The notes under the pieces are model-generated. The model did not search any database. It was given only the letters and a program-made list of their open reading frames with translations, and was not told where the DNA came from. DNA of 64,000 nt from Candidatus Doudnabacteria bacterium (GTDB lineage: Bacteria > Patescibacteriota > Doudnabacteria > UBA920), in the NCBI GenBank assembly GCA_031291995.1, contig JARLHZ010000022.1, positions 11,330 to 75,329 on the forward strand, read 5' to 3'. This document shows positions 772 through 39,080 of this stretch, piece by piece. Within the stretch, counting starts at the first letter, position 1. The number at the start of each line of letters is the position of its first letter. A program made the translations under genes and the position numbers.

Positions 772-806
772 AACCCCCGCTTCGCAAGAAGCGGGGGTTT
801 TGTTTG
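772..806 (+). terminator. Rho-independent terminator (stem CCCCCGC / GCGGGGG, loop TTCGCAAGAA, T-run)
   Basis: GC-rich 7-bp stem followed by TTTTGTTTG, directly after the stop of the upstream CDS. Confidence 0.6.
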
Positions 807-820
807 CGGGTTAAGGCAAA

Positions 821-865
821 GTGTCAAAGGTGCTCTTTGCCAGTGGCAAAGAGCACCTTTGACAC
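821..865. repeat. REP doublet (REPIN-like): two inverted copies of 23-nt palindromic unit GTGTCAAAGGTGCTCTTTGCCAC
   Basis: GTGTCAAAGGTGCTCTTTGCCA-GTGGCAAAGAGCACCTTTGACAC. The same unit recurs at 3771, 7951, 8621 and 34481. Confidence 0.75.
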
Positions 866-888
866 TGGGAGCTGAATTGCGGCTGTGG

Positions 889-3718: not shown

Positions 3719-3760
3719 AAAACGCCCCGCCCCTTCGCAAGAATGGGCGGGGTTGTTTTA
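3719..3760 (+). terminator. Rho-independent terminator sharing the TTCGCAAGAA loop with the terminator at 772-806
   Basis: CGCCCCGCCCC-TTCGCAAGAATG-GGCGGGG followed by TTGTTTT. Confidence 0.6.
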
Positions 3761-3770
3761 TAGAAGCAGA

Positions 3771-3793
3771 GTGGCAAAGGTGCTCTTTGCCAC
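3771..3793. repeat. REP unit (GTGGCAAAGGTGCTCTTTGCCAC, perfect-stem variant)
   Basis: Sequence match to the REP family seen at 821, 7951, 8621 and 34481. It lies about 10 nt after the terminator, as at 821. Confidence 0.7.
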
Positions 3794-3844: not shown

Positions 3845-4105
3845 ATGAAAACTTTCCGATACAATTTAGTTTTTCAATCCGAACCGGAAGGCGGGTTTAC
3901 AGTAATTGTTCCGGCCCTGCCGGGGTGCGTTAGCTATGGAAAAAATTTAAAGCAGGCCAAAGCCATGGCTCAGGACGCCATTACCGGCTATCTGCAAAGT
4001 TTGCGTAAACACGGCAAAAATATTCCAAACGATAACGACAGTTTTATAACAGTTACGGAAGTCAGTTTGGAGGAGAATAAATTTAAAAAAATCTCTTATG
4101 CCTAA
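3845..4105 (+). CDS. hicB: HicB-family antitoxin (UPF0150)
   Basis: 86 aa. The motif 'FTVIVPALPGCVSYGKNLKQAKAMAQDAITGYL' is typical of HicB N-terminal domains. It overlaps the downstream hicA by 8 nt. Confidence 0.7.
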   Translation: MKTFRYNLVFQSEPEGGFTVIVPALPGCVSYGKNLKQAKAMAQDAITGYLQSLRKHGKNIPNDNDSFITVTEVSLEENKFKKISYA

Positions 4106-4313
4106 GCTCCCGGTTTTGACGGCAAGGAGAATTATCAAACTTCTTAAACGCAACGGTTTTATTCTTGATCACGCAACTGGCGCCCACTATATTTTTTATA
4201 ACGCTGCCCGTGACCGCCATGTGACGGTTCCTTATCATGCCAAGGATTTGCCAAAAGGGACACTGCTTTCCATCCTTGACCAAGCCGGGTTGGACAGAAA
4301 AGACATAATATAA
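4098..4313 (+). CDS. hicA: HicA-family mRNA interferase toxin
   Basis: 71 aa. 'LTARRIIKLLKRNGFILDHATGAHYIF...HVTVPYHAKDLPKGTLLSILDQAGL' matches the YcfA/HicA family. It is translationally coupled to hicB. Confidence 0.75.
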   Translation: MPKLPVLTARRIIKLLKRNGFILDHATGAHYIFYNAARDRHVTVPYHAKDLPKGTLLSILDQAGLDRKDII

Positions 4314-5064: not shown

Positions 5065-7938
5065 ATGAAAAAAATATTATTTTGGTTGATTGTAATAATG
5101 CTTGTAACACCCGTATTTTCTTTTGCTGACTCAGGCGATGGCGGCGGTGGTAATCCACCGCAACCTTTTGAAGGGAACTGCGGATTTAATTATTGGTTAA
5201 GCAATGACGATAATATTTTTCAGGATTTCCATAGTCAGGAATATGTTAACGGACTATTAGAAATACATTTAATGTTCAACAGTACTACCGAAGGCTACAA
5301 TAATATTAACCACTATTTGGTTTTATATGACTCCGATTGCAATAAATATTTTTATTATGCGGATTTCGCGCAAGACCCGTCGTTAAATATTCCACCAAAT
5401 ACCAGCGGGGTTAGTTTGCGTTTTACGAGCCCAACACATTTTCAAGTTTGGGATGACGATCTTAATCAGCGCTTAGATTGCGACCAATGCGATGTTGATT
5501 TAAGTTCTTATGGTTTCCCTTCCGGCCTCCGCGCGTCTTTCCATCTTCAATTAAACGATTATGATAATAATAAGTACGATTGGGACTTTTCCGAAGGATT
5601 TCCGGTTCAGGAGCCGGTAACTGATCAAAAAACTCCGGTTTTAATAGTTCCCGGAATTTTAGGGACGAAAATAGTCAAACAAAGCGAGGTTTTGTGGCCG
5701 GATGTCGTGCGGATGGCGGCACCTTTAGGGGATGACAGTTTTATGGATCCTTTAATTTTAAACCCGGACGGTTCACCGTTGGATACAAGCGTTGCCATGC
5801 CGGACATTTTAAGGGAACCTTATCCAGGTGAGCATTTTTATGACGGGATAATTCAGTCGTTTATAGACCAGGGTTACGTAGAAAATAAAGATCTGTTTGT
5901 ATTTCCTTATGACTGGCGACAGGATATTTTCAAGACGGCTTATAATGAAGAGGAACAGGGTTTATCGTTAGACAAAAGAACCGACCTTGCGGGCAAAATA
6001 GATCAAATTTTGTCGAATACCGGAGCTGATAAAGTGGATATTATCGCTCATAGTCAGGGAGGTCTTGTTACTAAGCGCTTACTATTTGAGAAACCCTCAT
6101 ATCAGGATAAAATCCGCAAATTAGTTTTAGTAGGGGTTCCAAACTTTGGATCACCTCAAACCGCAAAGACTTTATTATATGGTGATAATATGGGAATAAT
6201 TTTCAAAAAGAACGGTATAAACCTAGGCCAACTAAACCCCGAAGAGTTAAAAAAAATGGGCCTGAATATGCCCTCGGCGTACGAATTATTGCCCAGTCCT
6301 TCTTATTTTCTCCATGAACCGCTTGGCTATATTTACGATTATTATCAATTTTACTTAAATACTTATCAGAAAAGCGCAAATTATTTAAAACAAAATAATT
6401 TAAACGGCCTTCTTATTGATAACGCCACAATTTTCCACGATTATAATTATGATAATTTTGATTTTAGTAAAACAGGAATTGAAACTTTTAACATAGTAGG
6501 TTGTGAGCAGGGGACGCTTGGCACATTGGTAACCAAAGCCAATGCAGATCAGCCGGGCTTATGGTTTACAGCCGGAGACGGTACGGTTCCTTTTAATTCC
6601 GCAAATCAGGCTAAAGGAGCAACAAGTTATTATATTCGGGGGGCAGTAGAGCATTCAAAAATGTTGAGTGATGCAAGTATTATGCCTTTAGCAACCGACT
6701 TGATAACAGGAGTTATTTTGCCGGCACCAGCTAATGTTGTCACAGATTCGTCCCAATGCCATTTCGATGGGACTGAAGTTTCCGTTCATAGCCCAGTCGA
6801 CTTAGATATTTATGATGAACATAACAATCATGTAGGTGTATCTAATAATGACAATAGTCCCTTTGTGGATTTGGGAGTTCCGGGGGCGCAATATGAAGAA
6901 ATAGGCCACAACAAGTTTGCTTTTTTACCGGCGGGACATACTTATAAGGTTCAGCTTAACGCGACCGGTGCGGGAAGTTTTAGTTTAGATTCTTCACAAA
7001 TTCAAAACGGGGGAGTGGTAGGAACCACACATTATGATTCAGTAAATATTACCGCCAGTTCAAAAGCGGAAGTAGATTTAACTTCGGGAAATAACCAGCC
7101 AATTAAACTTGATCTTAACGGCGACGGAACCGTTGACCAGACCATTCAGCCATCGTCCGTTCTTAATGCTGACCAGTCGCAGGATTTAGTCCCGCCGGTT
7201 TCTACTTCCACCATTGCGGGGATTATGGGGCAGGAGGGGTTTTATCGGAGTAATGCTACGGTTACATTGGTGGCCATTGACCCGCTTTTAGCCGGGCAGG
7301 AGAGCCAGACATCGGGAATTTTAAATATCCGCTATAGCCTGGACAACAGCGCGACCACAACTTACCAGAGTCCTGTAATTGTAACTGCCGAAGGGCCGCA
7401 TAGCATCAGTTTTTTTGCCACGGACAAAGCCGGGAATAACGAACCGGCGCAAACCGTCAGCTTTACCGTGGACAAGACCGCGCCGGAGGCAGTCATCCAG
7501 TTCAGCCCCAGCCTTAAAGACATCCAGTTTACCGGCAGCGACAATATTTCCACCACTTCCAAGGTCGCCGTACTGGACAAGGTTAACGATATTTTGTTAA
7601 CCGACCAGGCCGGCAACGTTACGGAAATAAAATTAAAAGAAAAAAACCGCAAAGCCAGTATGCAGTCCACCATCCAGTCGTTAAGCTACAACGGCACGGC
7701 TCAGGATGTCAGCAAGAACACCCTGGCGTTTGTTTGGCAATATGACAAAAAGAATAACCTAACCAAACTTACCCAAAACGTGGCCGCCAAAAAAACCTAT
7801 TATATTTTGGCCGTTTACAACGGCAAAAAAACCACCCTGGCCGGCCTCGACAAATCCGGCATAATTCTAAAATCTATTCCCGGTCTATCCCTGCTAAAAG
7901 TCACCACCAACAAAGGCGACTTGGGCTGGTCAATTTAA
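5065..7938 (+). CDS. Secreted alpha/beta-hydrolase lipase/esterase (PGAP1/LCAT-like, GxSxG = AHSQGG) with Cys-rich N-terminal region and C-terminal Ig-like (DKTAP-type) domains
   Basis: The ORF track starts at a TTG (5059). The first ATG is at 5065 (MKKILFWLIVIMLVTPVFSFA signal peptide). The motif 'PVLIVPGILGTK...DIIAHSQGGLVTKRL...LVGVPNFGSP' is typical of lipase class 2/PGAP1-like enzymes. Confidence 0.7.
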   Translation: MKKILFWLIVIMLVTPVFSFADSGDGGGGNPPQPFEGNCGFNYWLSNDDNIFQDFHSQEYVNGLLEIHLMFNSTTEGYNNINHYLVLYDSDCNKYFYYADFAQDPSLNIPPNTSGVSLRFTSPTHFQVWDDDLNQRLDCDQCDVDLSSYGFPSGLRASFHLQLNDYDNNKYDWDFSEGFPVQEPVTDQKTPVLIVPGILGTKIVKQSEVLWPDVVRMAAPLGDDSFMDPLILNPDGSPLDTSVAMPDILREPYPGEHFYDGIIQSFIDQGYVENKDLFVFPYDWRQDIFKTAYNEEEQGLSLDKRTDLAGKIDQILSNTGADKVDIIAHSQGGLVTKRLLFEKPSYQDKIRKLVLVGVPNFGSPQTAKTLLYGDNMGIIFKKNGINLGQLNPEELKKMGLNMPSAYELLPSPSYFLHEPLGYIYDYYQFYLNTYQKSANYLKQNNLNGLLIDNATIFHDYNYDNFDFSKTGIETFNIVGCEQGTLGTLVTKANADQPGLWFTAGDGTVPFNSANQAKGATSYYIRGAVEHSKMLSDASIMPLATDLITGVILPAPANVVTDSSQCHFDGTEVSVHSPVDLDIYDEHNNHVGVSNNDNSPFVDLGVPGAQYEEIGHNKFAFLPAGHTYKVQLNATGAGSFSLDSSQIQNGGVVGTTHYDSVNITASSKAEVDLTSGNNQPIKLDLNGDGTVDQTIQPSSVLNADQSQDLVPPVSTSTIAGIMGQEGFYRSNATVTLVAIDPLLAGQESQTSGILNIRYSLDNSATTTYQSPVIVTAEGPHSISFFATDKAGNNEPAQTVSFTVDKTAPEAVIQFSPSLKDIQFTGSDNISTTSKVAVLDKVNDILLTDQAGNVTEIKLKEKNRKASMQSTIQSLSYNGTAQDVSKNTLAFVWQYDKKNNLTKLTQNVAAKKTYYILAVYNGKKTTLAGLDKSGIILKSIPGLSLLKVTTNKGDLGWSI

Positions 7939-7950
7939 TCCAATTCGGCA

Positions 7951-7973
7951 GTGCCAAAGGTGCTCTTTGCCAC
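7951..7973. repeat. REP unit (GTGCCAAAGGTGCTCTTTGCCAC) flanking the 5' side of RAYT
   Basis: Family member lying 24 nt upstream of the RAYT start. Confidence 0.7.
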
Positions 7974-7996
7974 TATACTAAATAAGCGGATAGTTA

Positions 7997-8614
7997 ATGA
8001 ACTCAAGGGATTATAAAATCCTCCGGCCCGGAAATTATTATCATATTTTTAATCGGGGGAATAATAAAGAAAAAGTTTTCCTTGATAGCCAGGATTACGG
8101 GGTCTTTTTGATACGTTTAAAAATGGCTTTGGGCTTGTTGCAACTTAGCTTTAACAAGAATAGCCGTGTTCGCATTAGGCCATTGCCCCAAGGATCTTTT
8201 ACCATAATTTGTTACTGTTTAATGCCCAATCATTATCATTTTTTGATAAGGCAAAATTCCGGTATTGGAATAGACAAGCTAATTGCGAAAGTCTGTACCA
8301 GCTATGCAAAATATTTTAATTTAAAGTACGGACATATTGGTAATGTCTTTCAAGATCGTTTTAAATCAAAATTAGTAGATAGTGACTCTTATCTTACCTA
8401 CCTATCCGCCTACATTCACAACAATCCGGATCAACCGCTGGATTGGGAATATTCCAGCTTTCGCGACTATCTTGGCTTAAGACAAGGTCAGATTTGCGAT
8501 AAAACCTTTTTGCTGGGAATGTTTAATAATCGTCCCGACGATTATAGAAAATTTGTGTTGGATTTTTCCGAAGAAGGAGCAGCTAAGATTAAAGATTTGC
8601 TATTTGAAGAATAA
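7997..8614 (+). CDS. REP-associated tyrosine transposase (RAYT; IS200/IS605-like HUH transposase family, COG1943)
   Basis: 205 aa. The N-terminal 'YHIFNRGNNKEKVF' compares with 'GRYHVxNRGNxRQxIF' in E. coli RayT. The HuH motif is 'LMPNHYHFLI'. Downstream Tyr candidates lie in 'TSYAKYF'. REP copies flank the gene on both sides. Confidence 0.8.
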   Translation: MNSRDYKILRPGNYYHIFNRGNNKEKVFLDSQDYGVFLIRLKMALGLLQLSFNKNSRVRIRPLPQGSFTIICYCLMPNHYHFLIRQNSGIGIDKLIAKVCTSYAKYFNLKYGHIGNVFQDRFKSKLVDSDSYLTYLSAYIHNNPDQPLDWEYSSFRDYLGLRQGQICDKTFLLGMFNNRPDDYRKFVLDFSEEGAAKIKDLLFEE

Positions 8615-8620
8615 TTGGAA

Positions 8621-8670
8621 GTGTCAAAGGTGCTCTTTGCCACAGCTGTGGCAAAGAGCACCTTTGACAC
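8621..8670. repeat. REP doublet (inverted pair separated by AGCT) flanking the 3' side of RAYT
   Basis: GTGTCAAAGGTGCTCTTTGCCAC-AGCT-GTGGCAAAGAGCACCTTTGACAC, 6 nt after the RAYT stop. Confidence 0.75.
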
Positions 8671-8711
8671 TATCATGCATCTGTTGACGGGATGCGCGGT
8701 TTAAAATATAC

Positions 8712-8742
8712 TTTAGTTGAACAGTTGAACTGTTCAACTAAA
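8712..8742. promoter_or_regulatory. 31-nt near-perfect palindrome (TTTAGTTGAACAG-TTGAA-CTGTTCAACTAAA), likely TA operator
   Basis: 13-bp inverted arms with GTTGAAC triplets lie 20 nt upstream of the AbrB-type antitoxin. Autoregulated TA promoters typically carry such operators. Confidence 0.45.
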
Positions 8743-8762
8743 TATTAAATAGTCGTTTATTT

Positions 8763-9056
8763 ATGCCTATTGTTACCGTAAAAAATAAATATCAGGTGGT
8801 TATACCGCAGACTCTGCGGCAGCAGATTGGAGTTAATATTGGGGACTTAATGGAGGCCAAAGTGGAAAAGGGGAAAATTACTTTTACCCCAAAGACTCTT
8901 GTTGACAGCCTGGAAAGCCGGATTGCCGAGAGCATGGCAGACTATAAAGCCGGACGGTCTTACGGACCGTTTGAGACCGCGGATGAACTTATCGCGTCTT
9001 TAAAGGGTATGCTAAAAAAGCGCGCAGCTTTTAAAAAGAAACATAAGATTTTATAA
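8763..9056 (+). CDS. AbrB/MazE/SpoVT-family antitoxin
   Basis: 97 aa. 'PIVTVKNKYQVVIPQTLRQQIGVNIGDLME' forms a swapped-hairpin AbrB-type DNA-binding domain. Its stop overlaps the downstream toxin start (TAAATG). Confidence 0.6.
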   Translation: MPIVTVKNKYQVVIPQTLRQQIGVNIGDLMEAKVEKGKITFTPKTLVDSLESRIAESMADYKAGRSYGPFETADELIASLKGMLKKRAAFKKKHKIL

Positions 9057-9302
9057 ATGCGAGCCCGTTATTCAAAAGGATTTTTTGATGCGTTAGAAAT
9101 TGCTCCTGATGCAATAAAAAAAGCTTTTTTCAAACAAGTTCGTTTTTTGGTTGCCAATTTGCGACACCCATCTTTGCATGCCAAAAAATATGACGAAAGC
9201 GGCGATCTCTGGCAGGCCCGCGTAAATGACGATTGGAGATTGTACTTTACCATACAAGGAGACGAATACCGCCTGCACGACATAAAACCCCATCCAAAAT
9301 AG
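9057..9302 (+). CDS. RelE/YafQ-like mRNA interferase toxin
   Basis: 81 aa. The C-terminal 'HPSLHAKKY..G.LWQARVNDDWRLYFTIQGDEYRLHDIKPH' matches the YafQ/RelE pattern (hP..ykdh..G.w...R..hv.pDwlLiY....d.l.l.rtGtH). Confidence 0.55.
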   Translation: MRARYSKGFFDALEIAPDAIKKAFFKQVRFLVANLRHPSLHAKKYDESGDLWQARVNDDWRLYFTIQGDEYRLHDIKPHPK

Positions 9303-33674: not shown

Positions 33675-34481
33675 ATGCTAAAAAAGTTTTTAAAATTTTT
33701 ATCCGCCCCATTTTTGGGCAACAAATACCTGCAATGGTTTTATTCGGGGTTATTTTTTGTATCCTTAAAAGGCATGAATTTTGGCGGGGGCAGCAGTTAT
33801 GATGAAAGCGGCGAATCGTGGGTATTAAAAATGATGGCGCAAAAAATCTCTGAGCCGGCTATTATTTTTGACGGCGGCGCCAACCGGGGAAATTACGCCC
33901 TGATGGCCGATAAAATTTTAGGCGGACGCGGAACCGCGCCGCAAATTTACTGTTTTGAGCCTTCGGCCGAAACTTTTTCTCTTTTGGGAAAAAATCTCGG
34001 CGAACGAAAAAATATTCGGTTGATAAATCAAGGTTTGGGCGAGCGCGCAGGTTCTTTAACCCTTTACTCCAATGCTAAAGGGTCGGGCCTGGCCAGTGTT
34101 TATAATAGGGAACTTTTAGCAAGCGGCTCGGGTCCCCATTTGACCGAACAGGTCGGCATAATCAGCGTAGATGATTTTTGTACCCGTAATAAGATCGGGC
34201 ATATTGATTTGTTAAAACTGGACACAGAAGGCCACGAGTTGGCCGCTCTGCGCGGCGCGGCGCAAATGATAGCCCGGGGCGCCGTAGCCAATATCCAATT
34301 TGAGTTCGGCGGGACAGATATAGACGCCGGAGTATATTTTCGGGATTTTTACCGGCTGCTTTCGCCACGTTACCGGATTTTTCGAATTTTAAAAAATGGA
34401 CTCAGGCCGATTAATAAATATTCCGAATGGGATGAAATATTTATAACCACAAATTACTACGCAGAATTAAAAAGAAATTAG
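33675..34481 (+). CDS. FkbM-family SAM-dependent methyltransferase
   Basis: 268 aa. 'IFDGGANRGNYALMA...CFEPSAETFSLLGKNL' and 'IDLLKLDTEGHELAAL' are the FkbM domain hallmarks. Confidence 0.7.
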   Translation: MLKKFLKFLSAPFLGNKYLQWFYSGLFFVSLKGMNFGGGSSYDESGESWVLKMMAQKISEPAIIFDGGANRGNYALMADKILGGRGTAPQIYCFEPSAETFSLLGKNLGERKNIRLINQGLGERAGSLTLYSNAKGSGLASVYNRELLASGSGPHLTEQVGIISVDDFCTRNKIGHIDLLKLDTEGHELAALRGAAQMIARGAVANIQFEFGGTDIDAGVYFRDFYRLLSPRYRIFRILKNGLRPINKYSEWDEIFITTNYYAELKRN

Positions 34482-34503
34482 TGTCAAAGAGCACCTTTGA
34501 CAC
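34481..34503. repeat. REP unit (GTGTCAAAGAGCACCTTTGACAC, perfect palindrome variant)
   Basis: Same family as 821, 3771, 7951 and 8621. It lies immediately after the stop of the FkbM gene. Confidence 0.7.
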
Positions 34504-34512
34504 TACTGATTT

Positions 34513-35253
34513 ATGCCCAAAGTTTCCGTAAATATTTTAACCAAAAACCGCGCCGAGCGCTTAAAAAAAGCTCTGGAGTCGGTTTTGGCGCAGGGCTTTA
34601 AGGATTTTGAGGTTATTGTAGTTAATGACGGTTCTACCGATACGACCGCCGAAGTCTTAAAAAATTTTGCTTCCGTTCTGGACCTAAAAATTATCAGCCA
34701 TAACCTTTCGCTTGGTATTACTCAAAGCCGGCAGGAAGCTTTGGCGCTATCAACGGGGGATTACGTGGCTATTTTGGATGACGACGACGTTTGGCTAAAC
34801 CCCAATAAGCTAAAAAAACAGGCGGAGTTTTTGGACCACAACCCGAACTGTGTTTTAACCGGGGGCGGCATGGAAATTGACGGCGATGAAAATTCTTGTA
34901 TGGGCAAGTTCCGGCCCCAAAGCGACCGGGCCATCCGCAGTTCCATGTTGTTTAAAAACAATTTTTTTACCTCCACGGCCATGTTCCGGCGCGGGGCGGC
35001 CATACAGGCCGGGGGGTTTATCAGCCGGGGCGCGGACCTGGCCGAAGACTACGACCTCTGGCTGAGGCTGGGACTGCTCGGCCAATTTTATAATTTCCAT
35101 GAGGTATTTACCTTATACGCCAAACCGAAGTATAATAAGGAAAGGTTTAAGCGGTTTTTACAAAAGCAGCTGATGTTAATAGCAAAATACAAAAATGATT
35201 ACCCGGGCTTTTATTTAGCCAGCCTTATCCTCCGCCTCCGCTTAATTTTTTAA
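34513..35253 (+). CDS. Glycosyltransferase family 2
   Basis: 246 aa. 'VSVNILTKNRAERLKKALESVLAQGFKDFEVIVVNDGSTDTT' and the 'AILDDDD' DXD motif. Confidence 0.7.
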   Translation: MPKVSVNILTKNRAERLKKALESVLAQGFKDFEVIVVNDGSTDTTAEVLKNFASVLDLKIISHNLSLGITQSRQEALALSTGDYVAILDDDDVWLNPNKLKKQAEFLDHNPNCVLTGGGMEIDGDENSCMGKFRPQSDRAIRSSMLFKNNFFTSTAMFRRGAAIQAGGFISRGADLAEDYDLWLRLGLLGQFYNFHEVFTLYAKPKYNKERFKRFLQKQLMLIAKYKNDYPGFYLASLILRLRLIF

Positions 35254-35277: not shown

Positions 35278-35312
35278 TAACTTGTCACTTGTCACTTGTA
35301 ACTTGTCACTAA
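35278..35312. repeat. Short tandem heptamer repeat (ACTTGTC/ACTTGTA x4-5) upstream of the initiating transferase
   Basis: aacttgtcacttgtcacttgtaacttgtcact lies directly 5' of the ATG at 35318. The preceding 25 nt are pyrimidine-rich (ctccctcctcgcccc). Confidence 0.5.
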
Positions 35313-35317
35313 TTCCC

Positions 35318-36628
35318 ATGTCCAAACCTGCCCTCCGTTTTTGGTTAATTGTCATCCCGACCGCCGCGATTTTTTATTTGAGCCTGCAGGCGACTCTGGT
35401 TTTGCGCTATCACGGTCAGCTGGCCTACGATGCTTTGGACGCGCACTACAAAATATTCAGCATAATATTTGTCATATGGCTGCTGGTCTTTTTTATCCAC
35501 GGCCTGTTCGATGTCCGGGTGTTTCGCCGCTACTCAAGCCTATTTTTTAATTTGGTTTCGGCCATGGCGGTCAACCTGCTGCTGGCCATTATATATTTTT
35601 ATTTCCAGCCGAATTTAATTTTGACCCCCAGGCGCATTTTGTTGTTATTGGTCGGCGTCGCCTTTGTCCTTATTTTGTTATGGTATTTGCTGGTCAAGTA
35701 TATTTTTAAAAGTCGGTTGTCCGAAGGTATTTACCTGTTTTCGTTCAACAACGAACTGTCGGAATTGGAAGGGGAAATTAAGGGACATGCATTTTTGGGT
35801 TTTCGCGTGCTTGGGCATTTAAATCAGCAAAGCCTGGGGCAAATGGCGCTGGACAAAAATTCCAGCATTATTTTTCCCGATAACCTTCAGGCCAGCCCGC
35901 AAACCGCGGAACAAATGTACCAGCTGCGGACCCTGGGCGTGCGGTTTTATAACCACAAAAGTTTTTACGAGCAGCTGCTGCGCCGCATATATCTTTCCCA
36001 AATTGACGAGCTGTGGTTTTTGGAAAACATAGATTATCAGGAAAAACGGTTTTATAACCTGGCAAAACGGGCCATGGATATTATTTTGGGGGCGATAGGC
36101 CTGATTTTCTTTTTGGCAAGCCTGCCATTCTGCGCCCTGTTGATTAAGCTGGCCGACCGGAAAGGCTCAATATTTTTTGTCCAGGAGCGGGTGGGCCGCG
36201 GCGGCAAGCTGTTTAAGGTTTACAAGTACCGAACCATGAATTCCTGGGGCGTGACCAATACCTGGACTTCGGCCAACGATCCGCGCATTACCGGGGTCGG
36301 CAAATTTTTACGGAAGAGCCGTATAGACGAATGGCCGCAGTTTATAAATTTGTTGTTTGGGCACATGAGCCTGGTCGGGCCCCGTCCCGAACAGCCCCAT
36401 ATTGTGGAAGAGTTAAAAAAGCAAATCCCGTTTTACGATGAGCGTCACCTGGTTAAACCCGGTCTGACCGGCTGGGCGCAAATTAACAACATCTACGCCG
36501 CCAGCCTGGAAGAAACCAGAACCAAGCTCCAGTACGACCTCTACTATATTAAGCACCGCAGTCTGCTGTTTGATTTGGAAATAATTTTAAAAACCATCTA
36601 CTATATATTTACCTGGCAGGGGAGATAA
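35318..36628 (+). CDS. Polyprenyl-phosphate sugar phosphotransferase (WbaP/EpsB-type initiating glycosyltransferase, bacterial sugar transferase family)
   Basis: The first ATG is at 35318 (the ORF-track start at 35282 is a TTG inside the repeat). There are five N-terminal TM helices. The C-terminal 'KRAMDIILGAIGLIFFLASLPF...FVQERVGRGGKLFKVYKYRTM...DEWPQFINLLFGHMSLVGPRPE' is the canonical PF02397 domain. Confidence 0.8.
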   Translation: MSKPALRFWLIVIPTAAIFYLSLQATLVLRYHGQLAYDALDAHYKIFSIIFVIWLLVFFIHGLFDVRVFRRYSSLFFNLVSAMAVNLLLAIIYFYFQPNLILTPRRILLLLVGVAFVLILLWYLLVKYIFKSRLSEGIYLFSFNNELSELEGEIKGHAFLGFRVLGHLNQQSLGQMALDKNSSIIFPDNLQASPQTAEQMYQLRTLGVRFYNHKSFYEQLLRRIYLSQIDELWFLENIDYQEKRFYNLAKRAMDIILGAIGLIFFLASLPFCALLIKLADRKGSIFFVQERVGRGGKLFKVYKYRTMNSWGVTNTWTSANDPRITGVGKFLRKSRIDEWPQFINLLFGHMSLVGPRPEQPHIVEELKKQIPFYDERHLVKPGLTGWAQINNIYAASLEETRTKLQYDLYYIKHRSLLFDLEIILKTIYYIFTWQGR

Positions 36629-36782
36629 CGTAGTAATCGCAAAGATACGAATCTTAATTAATATACAAAACCGTCAGTTGTAGGCAAGTCGGGATAGAAA
36701 AGATAACTTACAGTGTACGGCTTCGTATATTAATATTAATTTGTATATTCGCGATTACTCGTATATTCGCGATTACTACTAT

Positions 36783-37550
36783 ATGAAACAATCTACATCC
36801 TGGGGCAAAGTCGCCGGCTGGTATAACCAGCTTTTGCAGGAAGGCGAAGATACTTATCAGGAAAAAATAATAAAACCGAATTTATTAAGAATTCTCGCGC
36901 CAAAATCCGGCGAGGAAATTTTGGACGTGGGCTGCGGGCAGGGATTTTTCGCGCGCGAGATTGGCAAAGCTGGGGCAAAAGTTTTGGGGATAGATGTGGG
37001 CGGGGAATTAATCCGGCTGGCCAAAGCTCAAGCGGGCAAAAATGAAACATATTTGGTGCTGTCGGCCGAAAAAATGGCCGGGTTGGCGGACTCCCGATTT
37101 AACGCGGCCGTTTGCGTGCTGGCCCTGCAGAATATCAAGAATATGCAGGCGGCAATTTTGGAAATTTCCCGCGTGTTAAAACCCGGCGGCCGCGCAGTTT
37201 TGGTGTTAAACCATCCGGCGTTCCGTATTCCCGGCGCATCAACCTGGGGTTACGATGAAAAAACTAATATCCAATATCGCAATATCAACAAATATCTGTC
37301 CCAAATTTCCCAGGAAGTGGATATGACCCAGGGCGTGGCCGATCCGAAACGGAAGAAATTTACCTTGTCCTTCCATCACCCTTTACAGGTTTACTTTAAA
37401 GCGTTTGCCAAAGCCGGGCTGGCTGTTTCGCGCCTGGAAGAATGGGTGTCGCACAAAACCAGCGACAAAGGCCCGCGCAAACAGGCCGAAGACGCGGCCC
37501 GAAAAGAGATTCCGTTATTTATGTGCCTGGAATTGAAAAAAATTTATTAA
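36783..37550 (+). CDS. Class I SAM-dependent methyltransferase (Methyltransf_11/UbiE-like)
   Basis: The first ATG is at 36783 (the ORF-track TTG start at 36741 lies in a tandem repeat). 'ILDVGCGQGFFAREIGKAGAKVLGIDVG' is motif I. 'LKPGGRAVLV' is the post-motif II region. Confidence 0.65.
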   Translation: MKQSTSWGKVAGWYNQLLQEGEDTYQEKIIKPNLLRILAPKSGEEILDVGCGQGFFAREIGKAGAKVLGIDVGGELIRLAKAQAGKNETYLVLSAEKMAGLADSRFNAAVCVLALQNIKNMQAAILEISRVLKPGGRAVLVLNHPAFRIPGASTWGYDEKTNIQYRNINKYLSQISQEVDMTQGVADPKRKKFTLSFHHPLQVYFKAFAKAGLAVSRLEEWVSHKTSDKGPRKQAEDAARKEIPLFMCLELKKIY

Positions 37551-38940: not shown

Positions 38941-39080
38941 ACGTAGAGCGAGTCCGGCCATTTATGGCCGCGCGAGCCGAGGAGCTAATACAGGTTCAAT
39001 ACCGCGCGGCTCGCCGCGCAATTGTAGCGATGTCTTTGCAGTAATACCCCGCTGCTTGCGGCGGGGAACCTTTATTTTTT

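What the first reader, a model, noticed from the sequence alone, without database searches (positions are those of the whole stretch)
7951..8670. RAYT (REP-associated tyrosine transposase) flanked by its own REP elements, with the same 23-nt REP dispersed at five sites in the window
The 205-aa HUH-Y1 transposase (YHIFNRGNNKEKVF ... NHYHFLI) has the RayT-type N-terminal signature, not a classical IS200 TnpA. A single REP (GTGCCAAAGGTGCTCTTTGCCAC) lies 24 nt upstream of it. An inverted REP doublet (REPIN) lies 6 nt downstream. Further copies sit at 821-865 (doublet), 3771-3793 and 34481-34503, all intergenic and immediately 3' of genes. This is the architecture described for REP/RAYT systems in Proteobacteria. 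In the CPR-like genomic context suggested by the neighbouring genes, such a domesticated single-copy transposase and repeat system is not commonly annotated. REP density of about 5 per 64 kb suggests an actively maintained family.
Basis: partly seen in the sequence, partly recalled or inferred. Interest (0 to 1): 0.7.

Follow-up and report, generated by a model that had tools for sequence, protein, structure and literature searches.

The report
REP hairpin repeats with their RAYT gene
A tiny-genome bacterium (Candidatus Doudnabacteria) carries a single-copy, fixed-position tyrosine "transposase" gene bracketed by short DNA hairpins, copies of which are also scattered between other genes; this is the REP/RAYT arrangement known from Proteobacteria, found here in a lineage and protein branch where it has not been described.

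Summary
A 23-nt hairpin repeat occurs seven times at five intergenic sites (0 expected by chance). One copy lies 23 nt upstream and an inverted doublet 6 nt downstream of a 205-aa HUH/Y1 gene (7997-8614).

- **Protein:** it passes Pfam Y1_Tnp and has NHYH and YIHNNP motifs (class 2, not IS200). Its AlphaFold model is closest to E. coli RAYT bound to a REP hairpin (4ER8).
- **Family pattern:** in 57 of 72 metagenomic homolog loci the two flanks share a locus-specific word of at least 12 nt, usually a hairpin. Control genes do so about 3% of the time.
- **Orthologs:** they sit in two conserved gene contexts. Each has its own REP variant, some with compensatory stem changes.
- **REP turnover:** doublets are present or absent between syntenic genomes. 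In two relatives a doublet is inserted in frame inside the RAYT gene.
- **Copy number:** two homologs, each seen on 24 contigs, always occupy one context.

The REP/RAYT reading is therefore supported, with three caveats:
- The protein fails the E. coli-type RAYT model. It is nearest to subclass 2.1 (TIRYT), which was reported to lack REPs.
- REP numbers are small and cluster near the gene.
- The source genome could not be censused, and nothing biochemical was tested.

Verdict: a new member of a known kind, of moderate interest.

The parts
7997..8614 (+). RAYT-family HUH/Y1 gene, 205 aa (NCBI MDR3642604.1, annotated 'transposase')
   Evidence: ORF. Pfam Y1_Tnp scores 36.9 bits against a gathering score of 23. 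The AF2 model has pLDDT 93, and its best PDB fold match is 4ER8, E. coli RAYT with a REP hairpin. It is the only copy in the window.
8228..8239 (+). HUH motif N78-H79-Y80-H81 (metal-binding histidines)
   Evidence: N78, H79 and H81 are invariant in the 63-sequence family alignment. Codon positions were read.
8411..8428 (+). Y motif Y139-I-H-N-N143-P144 (catalytic tyrosine; class 2 'Y---NP' signature)
   Evidence: Y139, I140, H141 and N143 are invariant and P144 is conserved in at least 90% of sequences. The motif definition comes from PMC6006769 Table 1.
7950..7974 (+). Single REP hairpin 23 nt upstream of the RAYT start (C/C mismatch at stem position 4)
   Evidence: Promoter-like hexamers overlap it.
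8620..8671 (.). REP doublet (REPIN-like perfect 24-bp palindrome, 4-nt spacer AGCT) 6 nt after the RAYT stop
   Evidence: I5; -30 kcal/mol. Logan contig L001 ends inside it, which looks like an assembly break at a repeat.
820..866 (.). REP doublet (arms share one base) between a terminator-like hairpin (774-805) and a promoter-like site (889-917)
   Evidence: (I10).
3770..3793 (+). Single REP with a perfect 9-bp stem, just after a terminator-like hairpin (3727-3758) and before the hicB gene
34480..34504 (-). Single REP in the 31-nt spacer between ORFs 33675-34481 and 34513-35253; it overlaps the stop codon by one base

Best explanation
This is a REP/RAYT ('REPtron') system of a Candidatus Doudnabacteria (CPR/Patescibacteria) genome.

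Shown:
- The 205-aa protein is a single-copy, vertically inherited HUH/Y1 single-strand DNA endonuclease. Its metal ligands are H79 and H81, with N143 as the likely third ligand, and its nucleophile is Y139.
- Its gene is bracketed by cognate 25-nt hairpins (REPs).
- Copies of the same hairpin, as singles and as inverted doublets (REPINs), lie at other intergenic sites.

Inferred mechanism, by analogy with E. coli TnpA-REP and with IS608/ISDra2 TnpA:
- The protein recognises the folded REP hairpin on transiently single-stranded DNA.
- It cuts next to the hairpin foot (5'-GTGG/GTGT ... CAC-3').
- It forms a 5'-phosphotyrosine intermediate and rejoins the strands.
- This excises and inserts REP doublets into new intergenic sites, typically just past terminators, while the gene itself stays put.

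REP and RAYT therefore co-diverge. The REP population here is small, about 5-10 sites per roughly 1-Mb genome, and is concentrated near the gene.
For: Protein:
- Y1_Tnp is above the Pfam threshold.
- The HUH residues, Y139 and N143 are invariant in 63 homologs.
- The model is confident (pLDDT 93). Its top PDB fold hit is 4ER8 'REP associated tyrosine transposase bound to a REP hairpin' (E 2.8e-6, 177 columns), ahead of ISDra2 and IS608 TnpA.

Repeat:
- 7 copies against 0 expected, all intergenic, all hairpins.

Association is family-wide:
- 57 of 72 homolog loci share an exact word of at least 12 nt between the upstream and downstream 200-nt flanks. Most are palindromic and locus-specific. Among 281 control ORFs in the same loci the figure is about 3%.

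Co-divergence:
- Orthologs 57-67% identical carry the same REP (L097, L089), a loop variant (L100, ATTCT), a stem variant with compensatory change (L099, CGAAG/CTTCG), or other hairpins (L090, L092).
- Protein identity correlates with flank-word similarity: rho 0.16, 0 of 2000 permutations reach it.

The gene is not mobile:
- LCAT-RAYT-WzyC-GT4-epimerase synteny holds between the window and L089. The neighbours are 41-81% identical and the RAYT 67%.
- hyp425-RAYT-MOFRL synteny holds in four genomes.
- P0076 and P0094 were each read on 24 contigs, always in one context.
- The family is almost absent from plasmids (20 of 72,556 records, all under 32% identity) and phages (1 record).

REPs are mobile or turning over:
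- The upstream REP is present in the window and absent in L089.
- A doublet lies 3' of WzyC in L089 and is absent in the window.
- Doublets are inserted in frame inside the RAYT ORF in L089 and L099.
- Three doublets with the same 12-nt spacer lie at unrelated sites in Doudnabacteria palsa_1336.
- A RAYT-less syntenic site (L003) holds a solo REP.
Against: - No biochemical evidence exists. Cleavage sites and the active strand are unknown.
- The protein is not an E. coli-type RAYT: NCBIfam REP_Tyr_transpos scores 35.7 against a cutoff of 80, and hhalign to E. coli RayT gives E 0.016.
- Its nearest characterised relatives, subclass 2.1/TIRYT (E 1.4e-26), are flanked by terminal inverted repeats. 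They were reported to have no REPs (PMC6006769).
- Copy numbers are tiny compared with proteobacterial REPINs.
- In 28 of 36 homolog loci of at least 5 kb, the hairpin occurs only next to the gene within about 6 kb. In many genomes the hairpins could therefore be only gene-flanking signals.
- The source genome could not be censused.
- RAYT orthologs occupy at least three different contexts among lineages, so the gene has relocated at some point.
Confidence: 0.68

Rival explanations
1. The gene plus its flanking hairpins is an autonomous IS200/IS605-like insertion sequence, with the hairpins as left and right ends. The gene-less singles and doublets are its MITE-like derivatives or footprints. 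The element is selfish rather than domesticated.
For: - The hairpins sit tightly against both gene ends (10-35 nt upstream, 0-20 nt downstream) across the family, like IS200 subterminal hairpins.
- In many loci the two proximal hairpins are in direct orientation.
- Most loci show no distant copies within 6 kb.
- Close homologs occupy at least three different gene contexts.
- L003 shows the same site without the gene.
Against: - The Y motif is Y---NP, not Y---Q. The HUH motif is NHYH, not DH[VI]H. The protein is 205 aa, not about 150 aa. There is no tnpB (criteria from PMC6006769 Table 1).
- There is one copy in 64 kb.
- Identical proteins on 24 contigs each always lie in one context.
- The locus is conserved across genomes whose neighbouring genes are only 41-56% identical.
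- The nearest homolog is only 70% identical, with no near-identical multi-context copies.
- The RAYT-less site retains a REP. Precise IS200-type excision would not leave one.
- The family is virtually absent from plasmids and phages.
Confidence: 0.12
2. The protein is a domesticated HUH nuclease that uses the hairpins only as binding or regulatory sites. Examples would be autoregulation of its own gene, or processing of single-stranded DNA at forks or in repair. The dispersed copies then arose by rare recombination or gene conversion rather than by RAYT-catalysed transposition.
For: - Promoter-like hexamers overlap the upstream REP.
- In most homolog loci the hairpins are confined to the gene flanks.
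- REP copy number is very low.
- The RAYT is more conserved (67%) than its neighbours LCAT (44%) and WzyC (41%), which suggests a host-beneficial function.
Against: - Identical 15-nt cores occur at unrelated intergenic sites.
- Doublets with a conserved spacer lie at three unrelated sites in palsa_1336.
- In-frame doublet insertions lie inside RAYT ORFs.
- Presence/absence differences occur at syntenic sites.
All of these are more simply explained by transposition of the doublet.
Confidence: 0.15
3. The hairpins are ordinary host elements, such as transcription terminators or mRNA-stabilising stem-loops. Their proximity to the Y1 gene is coincidental.
For: All copies lie 3' of genes. The consensus scan scores the doublet at 821-865 as terminator-like on the minus strand.
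Against: - No T-run follows the single copies.
- At 821 and 3771 the REP lies downstream of a separate GC-rich terminator with a T-run.
- The near-identical 23-mer sequence at every site is not expected of independent terminators.
- 79% of homolog genes are flanked by locus-specific hairpins, against about 3% of control genes.
- Hairpin sequence tracks RAYT divergence.
Confidence: 0.03

Closest known systems
E. coli REPtron: RayT (YafM, TnpA-REP) with REP/BIME sequences (Quentin subclass 2.2, Bertels group 2; PDB 4ER8)
   Same: - A single-copy HUH/Y1 gene bracketed by its cognate REP hairpins.
- The same REPs are dispersed in extragenic space as singles and inverted pairs.
- It has the Y---NP motif.
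- It is the best structural match of the model.
- The REP has a 5' GT[AG]G-type foot (GTGG on one strand).
   Different: - Sequence similarity is marginal: hhalign E 0.016, and NCBIfam 35.7 bits against an 80-bit cutoff.
- Here the motifs are NHYH/FQ rather than DHLH/WE.
- This protein has a 60-residue helical tail.
- REP numbers are a few per genome, not hundreds.
- The host is a CPR bacterium of about 1 Mb, not a proteobacterium.
[quoted passage not shown]
   Same: - It is the closest protein relative tested. The family profile against the Sporomusa termitida plasmid protein gives E 1.4e-26 and 36% identity over 157 columns.
- They share the YH..(N)RGN beta-1 motif, NH[YF]H, FQ in place of WQ, and the 'SS' proximal tail motif.
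   Different: - Those proteins are 230-295 aa with a distal Bac_DnaA_C-like HTH. They are flanked by 34-38 nt terminal inverted repeats carrying GGGG[AT]CAG.
- They were reported to have no REPs nearby.
- The CPR protein lacks the HTH and the TIRs and is flanked by short self-complementary hairpins.
Subclass 2.4 RAYTs (Bertels group 4; Cyanobacteria/Bacteroidetes)
   Same: - A YIxNNP-type Y motif and a length of about 194 aa.
- 'Double-foot' REPs (GT[AG]G ... C[TC]AC).
- REP insertions inside the tnpA-REP gene that keep the reading frame. This is seen here in L089 and L099.
   Different: - Those proteins have WQ where this one has FQ.
[quoted passage not shown] Here they lie in the loop before the HUH strand.
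- No direct sequence comparison was possible, as no reference sequences were held.
IS200/IS605 TnpA (IS608, ISDra2)
   Same: The HUH/Y1 fold and hairpins next to both gene ends. The presumed single-strand cut-and-rejoin chemistry is also shared.
   Different: Those have a Y---Q motif, are about 150 aa, occur in many near-identical copies, often have tnpB alongside, and transfer horizontally. None of this is seen here.

Membership tests
REP/RAYT system (REPtron) | Protein has the HUH/Y1 core with an HuH motif and a class 2 'Y---NP' tyrosine motif | tested here: met
   Pfam Y1_Tnp scores 36.9 bits against a threshold of 23. NHYH and YIHNNP are present, with H79, H81, Y139 and N143 invariant in 63 homologs. 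The fold is closest to 4ER8.
REP/RAYT system (REPtron) | Gene flanked on both sides by copies of one palindromic repeat | tested here: met
   REPs at 7951-7973 and 8621-8670. The same arrangement holds in 57 of 72 homolog loci, against about 3% of control genes.
REP/RAYT system (REPtron) | The same repeat dispersed in extragenic space elsewhere in the genome, in numbers beyond gene duplication | tested here: inconclusive
   Three further intergenic sites lie in the 64-kb window. Another Doudnabacteria species has 8 units at 5 sites in the whole MAG. The source genome is not in the searchable collection, so there is no genome-wide count. The numbers are low.
REP/RAYT system (REPtron) | REP carries a 5' GT[AG]G tetranucleotide at the hairpin foot | tested here: met
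   Read on the strand GTGGCAAAGAGCACCTTTGACAC, five of the seven units start with GTGG. The copy at 3771 has GTGG...CCAC on both feet. The criterion is from PMC6006769. Whether this is the functional guide is untested.
REP/RAYT system (REPtron) | Inverted REP doublets (REPINs) as a repeated unit | tested here: met
   Two doublets lie in the window. Three doublets with the same 12-nt spacer lie at different sites in palsa_1336. Doublets occur in L089, L097, L099 and L100.
REP/RAYT system (REPtron) | RAYT gene is single or low copy, vertically inherited, and rare on plasmids | tested here: met
   One copy in the window. Synteny is conserved across divergent genomes. One context across 24 contigs for each of two homologs. 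Only 20 of 72,556 plasmids have distant relatives. Copy number in the whole source genome was not tested.
REP/RAYT system (REPtron) | Protein binds and cleaves its cognate REP as single-stranded DNA | not testable with these tools
   Needs biochemistry.
E. coli-type RAYT (NCBIfam NF047646 REP_Tyr_transpos; subclass 2.2) | Score at or above the curated equivalog cutoff (80 bits) | tested here: not met
   35.7 bits. Family profile against E. coli RayT: hhalign E 0.016, probability 2.9%.
Subclass 2.1 / TIRYT | Core-domain sequence similarity and motifs NH[YF]H, FQ, Y[IV]H.NP | tested here: met
   hhalign E 1.4e-26 to the Sporomusa protein. Motifs checked.
Subclass 2.1 / TIRYT | Distal C-terminal HTH domain (Bac_DnaA_C, HTH_23 or HTH_28-like) | tested here: not met
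   There is no such Pfam hit in the 205-aa protein. It is present in the Sporomusa relative.
Subclass 2.1 / TIRYT | Gene flanked by terminal inverted repeats with GGGG[AT][CG]A[CG], not by hairpins | tested here: not met
   These are found around the Sporomusa and P. aeruginosa relatives. They are absent from the window flanks, which carry REP hairpins instead.
IS200/IS605 TnpA (subclass 1.1) | Y---Q motif, DH[VI]H motif, about 150 aa, multiple near-identical copies | tested here: not met
   The protein has YIHNNP and NHYH and is 205 aa. It is single copy in the window. Homologs occupy a single context.

The most novel reading that the evidence does not exclude
These CPR proteins form a previously unclassified, Patescibacteria-wide RAYT subclass. 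It branches next to the TIRYT/subclass 2.1 proteins but has lost the HTH tail and uses short REP hairpins. It maintains very small, long-lived REPIN populations inside roughly 1-Mb streamlined genomes. If so, REPIN-RAYT partnerships are not a peculiarity of large proteobacterial genomes. Hairpin-using and TIR-using Y1 enzymes would also interconvert within one protein lineage.
Probability: 0.45. Interest if true: 0.55.

Novelty: new member of a known kind. Interest (0 to 1): 0.42.

Why it matters
REP/RAYT systems have been studied almost only in Proteobacteria, with some work in Cyanobacteria and Bacteroidetes. [quoted passage not shown]

This finding shows a clean, small example in a CPR bacterium:
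- The gene position is conserved.
- REP variants co-diverge with their RAYT, with compensatory stem changes.
- REP doublets are inserted in frame into the RAYT gene itself.

This extends the phenomenon to the most streamlined bacterial genomes. With only a handful of elements per genome, REPIN gain and loss could be traced site by site.

It also bears on published classifications. The branch nearest to this protein (subclass 2.1, group 1) was reported as not REP-associated.

Two practical points follow:
- These genes are annotated simply as "transposase", and gene callers sometimes add REP-encoded N-terminal extensions to them.
- The REP doublets break metagenomic assemblies.

Tried and rejected
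- **PDB sequence searches.** Searches with the protein and with the family profile found no meaningful hit. Only the fold search did.
- **Rfam.** It finds nothing at the REPs. The whole window yields only two tRNAs.
- **Masked-window suspicion.** I suspected the window might be a masked part of Doudnabacteria palsa_1336 contig PLYC01000020.1 (102,196 nt, against 102,204 nt recorded for the window's protein). That would have given a genome-wide count. I rejected it for three reasons: there is no sequence overlap beyond repeats; the doublet spacers differ; and the proteins of that contig are on record with a different longest contig and source than the window's protein MDR3642604.1.
- **Second hairpin type.** The hairpin ACTGGAAGAAGG...CCTTCTTCCAGT flanks a 45%-identical paralog-type gene in L007. 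It is absent from the window.
- **REP orientation.** GC skew is positive throughout the window, but three single copies (2:1) are too few to say anything about orientation relative to replication.
- **First structure job.** I rebuilt the alignment.
- **Hairpin detector.** My strict detector (stem of at least 8) missed the 6-bp hairpins of L090. They were found by eye.
- **Literature.** Searches pairing RAYT/REPIN/REP with CPR terms listed no paper treating REP/RAYT systems in CPR. One search found one preprint containing both a RAYT term and a Patescibacteria term, but its RAYT is an archaeal (Pacearchaeales) annotation. Absence from that library does not prove absence from the literature.
Full report
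**1. The observation**

None was found in 100 dinucleotide-preserving shuffles. The central 15 nt (CAAAGGTGCTCTTTG) is identical in all seven, and no weaker copy appears at up to two mismatches. Variation is confined to stem positions 4 and 20.

With the conserved A before and T after, each unit is a 25-nt near-palindrome. It folds as single-stranded DNA into a 9-11 bp stem with the 5-nt loop GTGCT. The two doublets (820-866, 8620-8671) fold into 22-24 bp hairpins of -27 to -30 kcal/mol, z about -9 to -12.

All five sites lie between long ORFs. The copy at 34481 shares one base with a stop codon. At 821 and 3771 the REP lies just downstream of a separate GC-rich terminator-like hairpin with a T-run, and upstream of a promoter-like site for the next gene.

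The ORF is 7997-8614 (+), 205 aa. The upstream REP ends 23 nt before its ATG, and the doublet begins 6 nt after its stop.

The description is therefore accurate. The one misleading statement is the density. Six of the seven units lie within the first 8.7 kb around the gene, and one lies in the remaining 55 kb.

**2. The protein**

- It passes Pfam Y1_Tnp (36.9 bits against a gathering score of 23).
- It reaches only 35.7 bits against the 80-bit cutoff of NCBIfam REP_Tyr_transpos, the E. coli-type equivalog.
- Sequence searches of the PDB find nothing.
- In an alignment of 63 homologs, H79 and H81 (NHYH), Y139, I140, H141 and N143 (YIHNNP) and the S153-S154 pair are invariant or nearly so.
- In the classification of Quentin et al. 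2018 (PMC6006769, Table 1), Y---NP defines class 2 (the TnpA-REP side). IS200 transposases have Y---Q and DH[VI]H.
- An AlphaFold model built on that alignment is confident (pLDDT 93, pTM 0.89). Its best Foldseek hit in the PDB is 4ER8, 'REP associated tyrosine transposase bound to a REP hairpin' (E 2.8e-6, 177 aligned columns). ISDra2 and IS608 TnpA follow.

At the sequence level the family profile barely sees E. coli RayT (hhalign E 0.016). It aligns strongly to a 295-aa Sporomusa termitida plasmid 'transposase' (E 1.4e-26, 36% identity). That protein has Y1_Tnp plus a Bac_DnaA_C-like tail, the hallmark of subclass 2.1, Bertels group 1. It and a P. aeruginosa relative are flanked by 34-38 nt terminal inverted repeats containing GGGGTCAG or GGGGACAG. 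This is the TIRYT signature quoted in PMC6006769.

The window protein shares the YH..NRGN, NH[YF]H, FQ and 'SS' motifs of that subclass. It lacks the distal HTH and the TIRs. What separates the protein from IS200 TnpA is the Y motif.

**3. Origin**

The exact protein is NCBI MDR3642604.1, 'MAG: transposase [Candidatus Doudnabacteria bacterium]'. The CPR context is confirmed. A Logan contig carrying the same locus ends inside the downstream doublet, as expected at a repeat.

**4. Is the hairpin association a property of the family?**

A scan of JGI metagenome contigs returned 80 homolog loci. In 72 loci with enough flank, I compared the 200 nt upstream and downstream of the gene.

- 57 loci share an exact word of at least 12 nt, direct or inverted. 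It is nearly always a palindromic hairpin, and its sequence differs from locus to locus.
- Among 281 other ORFs of at least 150 aa in the same loci, about 3% do so.
- The hairpins typically sit 10-35 nt before the start and 0-20 nt after the stop.
- Only 8 of 36 loci of at least 5 kb show further copies within about 6 kb. Large dispersed populations are therefore not the rule.
- Protein identity and similarity of the flank words are weakly but significantly correlated (Spearman 0.16; 0 of 2000 permutations reach it).

**5. Orthologs: fixed gene, changing REPs**

*Context A.* Locus L089 has a RAYT 67% identical to the window's and is syntenic with it: LCAT-like (44% identity), RAYT, Wzy_C (41%), GT4 (56%), epimerase (81%). 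It carries the same REP core, but at partly different places:
- a doublet right after the RAYT, as in the window;
- no REP upstream of the RAYT, where the window has one;
- a doublet 3' of Wzy_C, absent in the window;
- a half-doublet at the contig start;
- a doublet inside the RAYT ORF, in frame, encoding VSKVLFAKGQRAPLT in the variable loop.

*Context B.* A second context, hyp425-RAYT-MOFRL, is shared by L092, L097, L099 and L100. Their RAYTs are 59-67% identical to one another and 61-67% to the window's. The flanking genes are 51-55% identical. Each RAYT is flanked by its own variant:
- L097 has the window's REP;
- L100 has the same stem but the loop ATTCT;
- L099 has CGAAG...CTTCG, a compensatory stem change, plus an in-frame CAAAGGTGCTCTTTG doublet inside the ORF;
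- L090 and L092 have hairpins with the loop AGATTCCCA. L090's two copies differ by a compensatory A-T to T-A swap.

*A site without the gene.* In L003 the same hyp425 and MOFRL genes are adjacent with no RAYT. A single REP fills the 28-nt spacer. This looks like loss of the gene by REP-REP recombination rather than IS-type excision.

*Population-level test.* Two homologs common enough to test, P0076 and P0094, were each read on 24 contigs from many samples. Each always lies in one gene context.

*Mobile elements.* tblastn finds only 20 of 72,556 plasmids and 1 of 50,697 phage records with relatives, all below 32% identity.

**6. Dispersal beyond the window**

It found the REP in Doudnabacteria palsa_1336, Doudnabacteria nzgw382, a MAG labelled Saccharibacteria (L003), and the L097 genome (L004).

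In palsa_1336 there are 8 units at 5 sites on three contigs. Three are doublets with the same 12-nt spacer at unrelated sites, and one provides the stop codon of a membrane-protein gene.

That genome is not the source of the window. It also holds a 45%-identical second-type homolog flanked by a different hairpin. This fits the rule 'each RAYT has its own REP'.

The source genome itself is not in the searchable collection.

**7. Interpretation**

The anatomy matches a REPtron:
- a single-copy, positionally conserved HUH/Y1 gene;
- cognate hairpins on both sides;
- the same hairpin as singles and inverted doublets in other intergenic spaces;
- REP and RAYT diverging together;
- REP occupancy changing between syntenic genomes.

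The catalytic mechanism is inferred from E. coli TnpA-REP and IS608/ISDra2 (background knowledge, and PMC6006769). It comprises hairpin recognition on single-stranded DNA, cleavage at the foot, a phosphotyrosine intermediate through Y139, and rejoining. Nothing here tests it.

The main rival is an IS200-like autonomous element with MITE derivatives. The motif set, single copy, conserved loci, absence from plasmids and the solo REP at the RAYT-less site all disfavour it. It is not excluded, because the gene has changed context between lineages and most homolog loci show hairpins only next to the gene.

A second rival is a domesticated nuclease for which the hairpins are only binding or regulatory sites. 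It would fit the low copy numbers and the promoter overlap. It explains the doublet insertions poorly.

**8. Novelty**

REP/RAYT systems are well described. JGI already labels some of these proteins 'REP element-mobilizing transposase RayT' through COG assignment. The gene family is therefore not new.

What I did not find in the literature library is any description of REPs or REPINs in CPR/Patescibacteria. The nearest classified protein branch was explicitly reported as lacking REPs.

I rate this a new member of a known kind, of moderate interest. The more ambitious reading is that it is a distinct CPR-wide subclass linking TIR-type and hairpin-type Y1 enzymes.

Noticed in passing
window 38972-39080 (+); L007 779-887 (-); L005 about 6590-6660: A conserved element of about 110 nt ends in a terminator-like hairpin plus T-run. 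It is 78-91% similar between the window and two places in another Doudnabacteria genome. The terminator stem shows compensatory changes (CCCCGC/GCGGGG against CCTCG/CGAGG), and the L005 copy has a deletion of about 42 nt. There is no Rfam hit even at E<=1. It could be a small RNA gene or a second repeat family.
   Followed up: partly
window 8712-9302: A MazE-like antitoxin (8763-9056) and a ParE-like toxin (9057-9302) lie directly after the RAYT and its REP doublet. The pair is absent from the otherwise syntenic locus L089, so it is an inserted cassette. A perfect 31-nt palindrome (8712-8742) sits just upstream and may be an operator.
   Followed up: partly
window 3845-4313: A HicB/HicA toxin-antitoxin pair lies immediately downstream of the REP at 3771. 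Both TA modules in this 9-kb stretch adjoin REPs.
   Followed up: no
window 774-865 and 3727-3793: The terminator hairpin (loop CTTCGCAAGAA) plus the following REP is about 75% similar between the two sites over about 69 nt. The terminator and REP may have been copied together, or REPs may insert at a preferred distance after this type of terminator (D18, 66).
   Followed up: no
L089 3581-3626; L099 6143-6188: REP doublets are inserted in frame inside the RAYT ORF, in the variable loop before the HUH strand. They add about 13-15 residues (VSKVLFAKGQRAPLT; LSKVLFGLSQRVPLT). Several other homologs show related peptide remnants such as SKVLF and QRGSL.
   Followed up: yes
L100 3236-3290; proteins P0008, P0009: Gene callers extended some RAYT ORFs upstream into the flanking REP doublet. 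This gives false N-terminal extensions (MAKRIFDN..., MSKSTFDKG...) encoded by the repeat.
   Followed up: partly
L003 2393-2430: The syntenic hyp425-MOFRL site has no RAYT and a single REP in a 28-nt spacer. The MAG is labelled Saccharibacteria, but its two flanking genes are 50-54% identical to those at the RAYT loci of L092, L097, L099 and L100, which may indicate mis-binning or mislabelling.
   Followed up: partly
L007 5070-5818 and about 5850-5935; L101 5615-5750: A second-type RAYT homolog (215 aa, 45% identical) in Doudnabacteria palsa_1336 is flanked by a different hairpin plus a 20-nt direct repeat. A tRNA-like sequence lies next to it. The RIFCSPLOWO2 Doudnabacteria homolog (P0076) likewise has a tRNA-like sequence right after its downstream hairpin. 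ARAGORN was not run on either.
   Followed up: no
window 7951-7994: Two sigma-70-like hexamer pairs (GTGCCA-17-TATACT and TTGCCA-16-GATAGT) overlap the upstream REP. RAYT binding to that REP could therefore regulate its own promoter. This is a consensus match only.
   Followed up: no
window 36625-36784: A 45-nt inverted repeat (76% complementary, 70 nt apart) spans the end of ORF 35282-36628 and the start of ORF 36741-37550. It is unexplained (I1).
   Followed up: no
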